Shown piece after piece: positions 35,601 through 38,600 of a stretch of 64,000 bases of DNA. The stretch comes from Escherichia coli (lineage in GTDB: Bacteria > Pseudomonadota > Gammaproteobacteria > Enterobacterales > Enterobacteriaceae), in NCBI RefSeq assembly GCF_045037415.1, contig NZ_CP173438.1. The stretch is one strand, 5' to 3'. A program made the position numbers. The stretch's first letter is position 1. The number at the start of each line of letters is the position of its first letter.

Positions 35601-38600
35601 AGCCAATCCGGACGACACCTTTGAAGCGCAGCTGTTTTATGGCGATCTAAAAGCCATCGTCAAAACCAGCCATCTGGTGAAAATCGATTATCCGAAATTT
35701 ATCGTTCACGGTAAGAAAGGTTCGTTTATTAAATACGGTATCGACCAGCAGGAAACCAGCCTGAAGGCTAATATTATGCCGGGCGAACCAGGATTCGCAG
35801 CGGATGATTCGGTCGGTGTGCTGGAGTATGTCAATGACGAGGGCGTGACGGTAAGAGAAGAGATGAAGCCAGAGATGGGCGATTATGGGCGCGTTTATGA
35901 TGCGTTGTATCAAACCATTACCAACGGTGCGCCAAATTACGTCAAGGAATCTGAAGTTCTTACGAATCTGGAAATCCTTGAACGCGGTTTTGAGCAAGCT
36001 TCTCCCTCCGCAGTGAGTCTCGCGAGGTAAGTTTGATGGCCCCTCGAATAGTTCAATTTTTTTGAACAGAGGGGTCAATTTTCACCCTCTATCATCCCAG
36101 GCGGATCGGGTCCACACTAAGCCCATCGAAATCATTCAGGGGGCGAATACAAATGATCTACTTACGCAAAGCAAATGAACGCGGTCATGCAAATCATGGC
36201 TGGCTGGACTCCTGGCATACTTTCTCTTTTGCCAACTATTACGATCCGAACTTTATGGGCTTCTCTGCGCTGCGCGTGATTAACGACGACGTTATTGAAG
36301 CAGGGCAGGGCTTCGGCACTCACCCGCATAAAGATATGGAAATTTTGACCTACGTGCTGGAAGGTACTGTTGAGCACCAGGACAGCATGGGCAATAAAGA
36401 GCAGGTTCCGGCGGGCGAGTTCCAGATTATGAGTGCGGGTACGGGTATTCGTCACTCAGAGTACAACCCAAGCAGCACCGAGCGTCTGCATCTGTATCAG
36501 ATCTGGATCATGCCTGAAGAAAACGGTATTACGCCGCGTTATGAACAGCGTCGCTTCGATGCCGTGCAGGGCAAACAACTGGTGCTTTCGCCGGATGCGC
36601 GAGATGGTTCATTGAAAGTGCATCAGGATATGGAACTGTATCGTTGGGCGCTGGTGAAAGATGAGCAGTCGGTGCATCAGATTGCCGCTGAACGCCGCAT
36701 CTGGATCCAGGTGGTGAAAGGCAATGTCACCATTAACGGCGTAAAAGCTTCGACCAGCGATGGTCTGGCAATCTGGGATGAGCAGGCGATTTCCATCCAT
36801 GCTGATAGCGACAGTGAAATCCTGCTGTTCGATTTACCGCCAGTCTAAATTTATCTCACAAACCTTCCTGAGGAATCAGGAAGGTTGTGATGCGTCCGTG
36901 TTAAACTAAGAGAATCTATCTCTTTTGTACCTTCAGGACGATGAAAAAGAAAAGACCCGTACTTCAGGATGTGGCTGACCGTGTAGGCGTGACCAAAATG
37001 ACGGTCAGCCGTTTTTTACGCAACCCGGAGCAGGTTTCCGTCGCTCTACGCGGCAAGATTGCCGCCGCTCTTGATGAACTGGGTTATATTCCCAATCGCG
37101 CGCCCGATATACTCTCTAACGCCACCAGCCGGGCGATTGGCGTCCTGTTACCTTCTCTCACCAACCAGGTTTTCGCGGAAGTATTACGCGGAATCGAAAG
37201 TGTCACCGACGCGCACGGTTATCAAACCATGCTGGCGCACTACGGTTATAAACCGGAAATGGAGCAAGAACGCCTCGAATCAATGCTCTCATGGAATATC
37301 GACGGCCTGATCCTCACTGAACGTACCCACACGCCACGCACCTTAAAGATGATTGAAGTGGCGGGGATTCCGGTGGTGGAGTTGATGGACAGTAAGTCGC
37401 CGTGTCTCGATATCGCCGTCGGTTTTGATAACTTTGAAGCGGCACGCCAGATGACCACCGCCATTATTGCTCGCGGGCATCGCCACATTGCCTATCTCGG
37501 CGCACGTCTCGACGAACGTACTATCATCAAACAGAAGGGATACGAACAGGCGATGCTGGATGCAGGCCTGGTGCCGTATAGCGTGATGGTTGAGCAATCT
37601 TCTTCTTACTCTTCCGGTATTGAACTGATTCGCCAGGCGCGGCGGGAATATCCGCAGCTGGATGGCGTGTTCTGTACTAATGATGACCTGGCGGTCGGCG
37701 CGGCGTTTGAATGTCAGCGTCTGGGGTTGAAAGTTCCTGACGATATGGCGATTGCCGGTTTCCACGGTCATGACATTGGTCAGGTGATGGAGCCACGGCT
37801 GGCGAGTGTGCTGACGCCGCGTGAGCGGATGGGCAGCATTGGCGCTGAGCGCCTGCTGGCGCGTATTCGTGGCGAATCTGTGACACCGAAAATGTTAGAT
37901 TTAGGTTTCACCTTGTCACCGGGCGGATCTATTTAAGCCTACAAATTTGAAGTAGCTCACACTTATACACTTAAGGCACGGATGGATATTGCTTCTGATA
38001 TTGTCCGGCTGGACAATGTTACCGATAACAGTTACCCGTAACATTTTTAATTCTTGTATTGTGGGGGCACCACTTTGAGCACGACTAACCATGATCACCA
38101 CATTTACGTCTTGATGGGCGTATCGGGCAGCGGCAAATCTGCGGTCGCCAGTGAAGTGGCGCATCAACTTCATGCCGCGTTTCTTGATGGCGATTTCCTC
38201 CATCCGCGCTGCAATATCGAAAAAATGGCGTCTGGCGAACCGCTGAATGACGACGATCGCAAACCGTGGTTGCAGGCGCTGAACGACGCCGCGTTTGCTA
38301 TGCAGCGCACCAATAAAGTATCGCTGATCGTCTGTTCTGCACTGAAAAAACACTATCGCGACTTGCTGCGTGAAGGTAATCCTAATCTCTCTTTCATCTA
38401 CCTGAAAGGCGATTTTGATGTGATTGAAAGCCGCCTGAAAGCGCGCAAAGGCCATTTCTTTAAAACCCAAATGTTGGTGACGCAGTTTGAAACGCTGCAG
38501 GAGCCGGGTGCGGACGAAACCGATGTACTGGTGGTGGATATTGATCAACCGCTGGAAGGTGTTGTGGCAAGCACCATTGAGGTTATTAAAAAAGGCAAAT

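What the first reader, a model, noticed from the sequence alone, without database searches (positions are those of the whole stretch)
38054..38080. gntK probably initiates at TTG, not the ATG suggested by the ORF track
The conserved N-terminus STTNHDHHIYVLMGVSGSGKS begins at TTG 38075. The ATG at 38054 would add MYCGGTT, which I do not recall in GntK. A non-canonical start may reflect low translational efficiency control.
Basis: partly seen in the sequence, partly recalled or inferred. Interest (0 to 1): 0.2.

Follow-up and report, generated by a model that had tools for sequence, protein, structure and literature searches.

The report
gntK starts at a TTG codon

Summary
The window carries the E. 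coli gntR-gntK-gntU locus and is 100% identical to strain SK1144 over the tested 751 bases. One stated fact is wrong: the upstream codon at 38054 is also TTG, not ATG (the ORF listing prints M for any start codon).

Evidence for 38075:
- A GGGGG Shine-Dalgarno sequence lies 7 nt upstream (-8.4 kcal/mol). The other three in-frame candidates have none.
- In 80 other species the aligned codon is TTG (77) or ATG (3). Cronobacter, Erwinia and Pantoea have ATG there.
- 36 of 81 sequences have no upstream in-frame start before a stop codon.
- The leader containing 38054 carries indels that are not multiples of three.
- Three-base coding periodicity begins exactly at 38075.
- RefSeq, NCBIfam profile NF008583 and PDB 1KNQ all start there.

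The idea that the weak codon is kept to limit expression is plausible. gntU also never uses ATG in these 81 sequences. The statistical support for gntK is weak, however, and nothing was tested experimentally. Verdict: already known, low interest.

The parts
36941..37936 (+). gntR, the LacI-family gluconate repressor gene, upstream neighbour of gntK
   Evidence: ORF; RefSeq annotation in the identical strain
37943..37964 (.). CRP-like site AAATTTGAAGTAGCTCACACTT. By my own count it matches 17 of 22 positions of the CRP consensus as I recall it. Inferred, not tested.
   Evidence: Sequence; largely conserved across genera in alignment A1. PMC2230225 states that E. coli gnt genes are activated by cAMP-CRP.
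37989..38017 (+). Promoter-like pair TTGCTT, 17-nt spacer, GACAAT. Inferred gntK promoter, with transcription expected to start near 38024.
   Evidence: TTGC of the first hexamer and the whole of GACAAT are invariant in 12 genera. The pair falls below the threshold of the consensus scan, which fits an activator-dependent promoter. The transcription start was not verified.
38016..38044 (.). Two adjacent GntR-operator-like palindromes, ATGTTACCGATAACA and GTTACCCGTAACAT, overlapping the -10 element
   Evidence: Almost invariant in 12 genera and present in most of the 80 loci. Assignment to GntR rests on my recalled ATGTTA-N4-TAACAT consensus and on PMC2230225 for repression by GntR.
38048..38050 (+). 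In-frame TAA that closes the gntK reading frame upstream
   Evidence: stop at -27; sequence
38054..38056 (+). Rejected as the start codon.
   Evidence: No Shine-Dalgarno sequence (+0.6 kcal/mol). Lies in a leader of variable length. It is the nearest upstream in-frame start in only 15 of 81 sequences.
38063..38067 (+). Shine-Dalgarno sequence GGGGG, 7 nt before the start codon
   Evidence: -8.4 kcal/mol against the anti-Shine-Dalgarno sequence. An equivalent purine-rich site is present in all 81 sequences (range -5.6 to -11.8 kcal/mol).
38075..38077 (+). True gntK initiation codon, TTG
38075..38602 (+). gntK coding sequence: 175 aa plus the TAA stop; gluconokinase
   Evidence: RefSeq coordinates map to these positions. 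NF008583 scores 374.6 bits against a cut-off of 265. The protein aligns to PDB 1KNQ over 175 residues with one difference, residue 46.
38111..38116 (+). Internal TTG (Leu13) and ATG (Met14). Rejected as starts, though some gene callers use the ATG to give 162-aa forms.
   Evidence: No Shine-Dalgarno sequence (+0.6 and +1.2 kcal/mol). Codons 2-12 show coding periodicity and conserved amino acids. P0010 is an example of the truncated call.
38117..38140 (+). P-loop GVSGSGKS, residues 15-22
   Evidence: Translation; aligned to 1KNQ
38606..39946 (+). gntU, gluconate transporter gene, GTG start 3 nt after the gntK stop codon; same operon

Best explanation
gntK is translated from the TTG at 38075-38077, which is read as formyl-methionine and gives the 175-aa gluconokinase MSTTNHDHHIYVLMGVSGSGKS.... 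The ribosome is positioned by a GGGGG Shine-Dalgarno sequence (38063-38067) 7 nt upstream. The TTG at 38054 is an accidental in-frame triplet in the untranslated leader, between the GntR operators and the Shine-Dalgarno sequence. TTG is a rarer and generally weaker start codon than ATG, so it probably lowers GntK output per transcript. Whether selection favours this is inferred, not shown.
For: 1. Shine-Dalgarno pairing is -8.4 kcal/mol at 38075, against +0.6 at 38054, +0.6 at 38111 and +1.2 at 38114. The value at 38075 is in the top 1.2% of 1,090 TTG triplets on the strand.
2. In 80 species of about 25 genera the aligned codon is TTG in 77 and ATG in 3. Cronobacter, Erwinia and Pantoea have ATG at the same codon, each with its own Shine-Dalgarno sequence. 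Two changes on the tree explain all states.
3. 36 of 81 sequences have no in-frame ATG, GTG or TTG upstream before a stop, and stops lie as close as -21 or -24.
4. The leader has indels that are not multiples of three.
5. Non-consensus fractions by codon position are 0.034/0.019/0.224 in codons 2-12, matching 0.040/0.017/0.264 in codons 13-60. The 21 nt upstream give 0.48/0.40/0.35, with no periodicity.
6. RefSeq places the coding sequence at 38075 in 3 of 3 sampled E. coli genomes.
7. Position 1 of the NCBIfam equivalog profile NF008583 aligns to this residue.
8. The PDB 1KNQ chain of 175 residues begins here.
9. On TTG as a start codon: only 81 UUG starts had been annotated in E. coli K-12 (PMC4909307), and AUG, GUG and UUG together span 10-100% of AUG output (bioRxiv 10.1101/063800).
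Against: The primary papers (Tong 1996; Izu 1996 and 1997) and the Ribo-RET study are not held, and the supplements of the tetracycline ribosome-profiling paper do not list gntK. The PDB chain shows only the construct that was crystallised, not the native N-terminus. A minor amount of initiation at 38054 in Escherichia and Citrobacter cannot be formally excluded.
Confidence: 0.95

Rival explanations
1. Translation starts at the upstream TTG 38054 and gives a 182-aa protein with the extension MYCGGTT, i.e. the longest ORF.
For: It is the first start codon after the in-frame stop at 38048. The TTG at -21 is kept in Escherichia and some Citrobacter and Kosakonia sequences, 15 of 81.
Against: No Shine-Dalgarno sequence (+0.6 kcal/mol). 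It is out of frame or absent in Salmonella, Enterobacter, Klebsiella, Kluyvera and others. The region has non-triplet indels and no codon periodicity. The extension lies outside NF008583 and is not annotated by RefSeq.
Confidence: 0.01
2. Translation starts at the internal ATG 38114 (Met14) and gives a 162-aa protein, as some automatic gene callers predict.
For: It is the first ATG in the frame. Database entries of 160-165 aa exist, e.g. P0010.
Against: No Shine-Dalgarno sequence (+1.2 kcal/mol). Codons 2-12 are conserved as amino acids and vary mainly at third positions, so they are translated. Residues 1-13 are part of the NF008583 profile and of the 1KNQ chain.
Confidence: 0.01
3. Dual initiation: most GntK starts at 38075, but in Escherichia a minor long isoform is also made from 38054.
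For: Dual start sites are reported for a number of E. coli genes (PMC4909307). The frame between 38054 and 38075 is open in this strain.
Against: There is no Shine-Dalgarno sequence, and the GGGGG that serves 38075 lies downstream of 38054. The extension is not conserved even among close genera. No data point to it.
Confidence: 0.03

Closest known systems
E. coli K-12 GntK, the thermoresistant gluconokinase of the GntI system (gntRKU); PDB 1KNQ; NCBIfam NF008583
   Same: Same gene. The protein aligns to 1KNQ over 175 residues with one difference. The gntR-gntK-gntU order is the same and RefSeq annotates the same TTG start. The match to NF008583 is full length and begins at profile position 1.
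   Different: Residue 46 is Cys here and Arg in K-12 and the PDB chain. This site varies across 81 sequences: Ser 54, Cys 19, Arg 4, Ala 3, Lys 1. Nothing differs at the start site.
Annotated UUG-initiated genes of E. coli
   Same: A TTG start served by a normal Shine-Dalgarno sequence. Only 81 UUG starts had been annotated in K-12 (PMC4909307), and UUG starts make up about 3% of E. coli genes (bioRxiv 10.1101/063800).
   Different: Nothing unusual. Here the TTG is held across a large clade of Enterobacteriaceae and is replaced by ATG in outgroups.
IdnK (GntV), the paralogous gluconokinase; NCBIfam NF007336
   Same: Same GntK/IdnK-type family, TIGR01313 (239.9 bits against a cut-off of 113.75).
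   Different: The window protein scores 182.4 bits, below the NF007336 cut-off of 304, so it is GntK and not IdnK.

Membership tests
GntK gluconokinase (NCBIfam NF008583, equivalog) | Whole-protein score above the curated cut-off, with a full-length match | tested here: met
   374.6 bits against a cut-off of 265; residues 1-174 match profile positions 1-174 of 177
GntK gluconokinase (NCBIfam NF008583, equivalog) | Close sequence identity to the structurally characterised E. coli enzyme | tested here: met
   1KNQ, E = 3.5e-114, 175 residues aligned, one mismatch at residue 46
GntK gluconokinase (NCBIfam NF008583, equivalog) | P-loop nucleotide-binding motif G-x-x-G-x-G-K-S/T near the N-terminus | tested here: met
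   GVSGSGKS at residues 15-22
GntK gluconokinase (NCBIfam NF008583, equivalog) | Position in the gntR-gntK-gntU locus | tested here: met
   the same order holds in Erwinia, Pantoea and Cronobacter
GntK gluconokinase (NCBIfam NF008583, equivalog) | Gluconate kinase activity | not testable with these tools
   Inferred from near-identity to the characterised enzyme
Genuine non-ATG (TTG) initiation codon | Shine-Dalgarno sequence at 5-9 nt spacing, stronger than at the alternative in-frame starts | tested here: met
   -8.4 kcal/mol with 7-nt spacing, against +0.6, +0.6 and +1.2 kcal/mol
Genuine non-ATG (TTG) initiation codon | Orthologues carry only start codons (ATG, GTG or TTG) at the aligned position | tested here: met
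   TTG 77 and ATG 3 of 80; ATG in 4 of 4 more distant orthologues
Genuine non-ATG (TTG) initiation codon | Coding signature begins at this codon and is absent upstream | tested here: met
   Periodicity; non-triplet indels and in-frame stops upstream
Genuine non-ATG (TTG) initiation codon | Native protein N-terminus or initiating-ribosome footprint at this codon | not testable with these tools
   The relevant papers are not held; gntK is absent from the supplements of PMC4909307

The most novel reading that the evidence does not exclude
The weak start codons of both genes of the gntKU operon are kept by selection in core Enterobacteriaceae to cap the output of gluconate kinase and transporter per transcript. 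gntK has TTG in 78 of these 81 sequences. gntU has GTG or TTG and never ATG in the same 81. Outgroups (Erwinia, Pantoea, Cronobacter) use ATG for gntK, and Erwinia and Pantoea use ATG for gntU as well.
Probability: 0.3. Interest if true: 0.25.

Novelty: already known. Interest (0 to 1): 0.06.

Why it matters
It matters little beyond annotation hygiene. The correct start is already in RefSeq, in the NCBIfam profile and in the PDB chain. The practical lesson is that a longest-ORF track over-extends gntK by 7 codons, that ATG-preferring gene callers truncate it by 13, and that some metagenome callers even translate the GntR operator as protein. The one mildly interesting point is that both gntK and gntU avoid ATG across a large clade. 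If that is selected, it would be a small example of operon-wide tuning of expression through start-codon choice.

Tried and rejected
- Literature: I looked for direct experimental evidence. Tong et al. 1996 (under the PMC id I recalled) and Meydan et al. 2019 are not held. Full-text searches for gntK with TTG or start codon, and for gntK with N-terminal, found nothing relevant to E. coli. The Nakahigashi 2016 supplements do not list gntK.
- Selection on TTG itself: the first base of the start codon differs from consensus in 3.7% of sequences, against a mean of 33% at 32 four-fold degenerate sites. A tree-aware, transversion-only count is much less striking: 2 changes against a median of 6, and 6 of 32 sites are equally quiet. 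I therefore do not claim selection.
- mRNA structure: the predicted fold of the leader and the 5' coding region leaves the Shine-Dalgarno sequence and the start codon about half unpaired (0.54 and 0.65). No distinctive occluding structure appears, so I rejected a structure-based control element.
- Promoter scan: the consensus scan found no + strand promoter. The promoter I propose rests on conservation and is an inference.
- Long database forms of 191-225 aa: I rejected these as evidence for an extension. They are either the GntR operator read as 'MLPITVTRNN...' or C-terminal frameshift read-throughs.
- Correction: I first placed the internal Met at 38111. The right positions are Leu13 TTG at 38111 and Met14 ATG at 38114.

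Full report
**What is in the sequence.** The window around the finding carries yhhX, yhhW, gntR (36941-37936), gntK and gntU (38606-39946) on the + strand. The tested stretch 37900-38650 is 100% identical to E. coli SK1144 and is present in 5,424 of 5,426 complete E. coli genomes. The codon at 38054-38056 is also TTG, not ATG. The sequence there reads aattcTTGtat, and the ORF listing labels the 182-aa ORF as TTG-initiated. An in-frame TAA lies at 38048-38050. Two further in-frame candidates lie downstream: TTG 38111 (Leu13) and ATG 38114 (Met14).

**Which start is used: signals in the sequence.** Pairing of the 18 nt upstream of each candidate with the 16S anti-Shine-Dalgarno sequence gives:

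| Candidate | Pairing energy (kcal/mol) |
|---|---|
| TTG 38054 | +0.6 |
| TTG 38075 | -8.4 |
| TTG 38111 | +0.6 |
| ATG 38114 | +1.2 |

The site serving 38075 is GGGGG at 38063-38067, with 7-nt spacing. Only 1.2% of the 1,090 TTG triplets on this strand have pairing as strong. The predicted fold of the leader does not bury the Shine-Dalgarno sequence or the start codon.

**Which start is used: comparison across species.** One scan of species-representative genomes returned 80 orthologous loci from about 25 genera of Enterobacteriaceae, with 90-99% protein identity.
- The codon aligned with 38075 is TTG in 77 and ATG in 3 (Buttiauxella, Yokenella, Trabulsiella).
- Four more distant orthologues (Cronobacter, two Erwinia types, Pantoea) all have ATG at the same codon, each preceded by its own Shine-Dalgarno sequence.
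- A column that holds only start codons, and swaps TTG for ATG, marks an initiation codon. As a sense codon the same change would be Leu to Met.
- Upstream, 36 of 81 sequences have no in-frame ATG, GTG or TTG before a stop codon. Stops lie as close as -21 and -24. The nearest upstream start, where there is one, sits at -15, -18, -21, -27, -45 or further.
- The -21 TTG is the nearest upstream in-frame start in only 15 of 81 sequences.
- A 12-genus alignment shows that the segment between the invariant operator palindromes and the Shine-Dalgarno sequence varies in length by amounts that are not multiples of three.
- Variation by codon position in codons 2-12 is 0.034/0.019/0.224, matching the body of the gene (0.040/0.017/0.264). 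The 21 nt upstream give 0.48/0.40/0.35, with no periodicity.

Coding therefore begins at 38075. This excludes both the 7-codon extension and the Met14 truncation.

**Agreement with curated resources.** RefSeq annotates gntK at positions that map to window 38075-38602 (175 aa) in the identical strain, in a K-12 derivative and in a divergent isolate. Position 1 of the NCBIfam GntK equivalog profile NF008583 aligns with residue 1 of the 175-aa form and with residue 8 of the 182-aa form. The crystallised chain 1KNQ (175 residues) starts MSTTNHDHH. From memory, the K-12 entry (b3437, UniProt P46859) is also 175 aa; I did not check this here. I could not retrieve the primary papers or any initiation-profiling data that cover gntK.

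**Surroundings.** The 138-nt gntR-gntK spacer contains, in order:
- A CRP-like 22-mer (37943-37964).
- A promoter-like pair, TTGCTT, 17 nt, GACAAT (37989-38017), with TTGC and the whole of GACAAT invariant across 12 genera.
- Two adjacent palindromes, ATGTTACCGATAACA and GTTACCCGTAACAT (38016-38044), overlapping the -10 element.
- The variable leader that holds TTG 38054.
- The Shine-Dalgarno sequence and the start codon.

This fits the published statement that E. coli gnt genes are repressed by GntR and activated by cAMP-CRP (PMC2230225). The assignment of individual sites, and a transcription start near 38024, are my inference. On that inference both TTG codons lie on the mRNA, so transcript mapping would not discriminate between them.

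**Is the weak codon deliberate?** TTG starts are rare. Only 81 had been annotated in K-12 (PMC4909307), about 3% of E. coli genes, and AUG, GUG and UUG together span 10-100% of AUG output (bioRxiv 10.1101/063800).
- The first base of the gntK start codon differs from consensus in 3.7% of sequences, against a mean of 33% at 32 four-fold degenerate sites.
- On a neighbour-joining tree, counting transversions only, it shows 2 changes against a median of 6, and 6 of 32 four-fold sites are equally quiet.
- With outgroups added, two changes explain all states. TTG looks like one old change inherited by a large clade.
- gntU starts with GTG (59) or TTG (19) in these sequences, and the three loci my pattern missed also read GTG by eye. 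ATG appears only in Erwinia and Pantoea. There are 6 changes on the tree, and the gntU start abuts or overlaps the gntK stop.

Avoidance of ATG in both genes is suggestive of tuning, but it is not demonstrated.

**Verdict.** It is a correct reading of a textbook locus and of low interest.

Noticed in passing
window 38600-38608; L004-L087: gntU starts with GTG 3 nt after the gntK stop codon. Across 81 Enterobacteriaceae sequences its start is GTG (59, plus 3 read by eye) or TTG (19) and never ATG. ATG appears only in Erwinia and Pantoea. The start overlaps or abuts the gntK stop (offsets -1, +2, +6), which looks like translational coupling.
   Followed up: partly
window 38631-38666: A terminator-like hairpin (11-bp stem, then a T-run) lies inside the first 20 codons of gntU. 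It could attenuate read-through from gntK into gntU. I did not test its conservation or function.
   Followed up: no
window 40087-43385: Compared with K-12, a 3.4-kb insert lies between gntU and yhgN. It holds a RecQ-like helicase (698 aa) and a DprA-like protein (431 aa) whose ORFs overlap. Both give full-length PADLOC matches, to PsyrT (1065 bits) and PsyrA (671 bits), a known toxin-antitoxin and defence pair.
   Followed up: partly
window 38210-38212 (GntK residue 46): Residue 46 is Cys here and Arg in K-12 and PDB 1KNQ. The site varies across 81 sequences (Ser 54, Cys 19, Arg 4, Ala 3, Lys 1), so this is an ordinary polymorphism.
   Followed up: yes
P0002, P0093, P0010, P0001, P0003, P0088 (database proteins): Public protein collections hold mis-called GntK forms. 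The 160-165-aa forms start at Met14. The forms beginning 'MLPITVTRNN...' translate the GntR operator. The 215-225-aa forms arise from C-terminal frameshifts into gntU.
   Followed up: yes
L028, L035, L036, L038, L039, L042, L047, L053, L055, L059, L067 (Klebsiella and Raoultella group), positions 1440-1500: In these genera the 60 nt upstream of gntK lack the GntR operator palindromes and look unrelated to the E. coli leader. The Shine-Dalgarno sequence (GGGAGGA) and the TTG start are kept. The upstream neighbour and the regulation may differ there.
   Followed up: no
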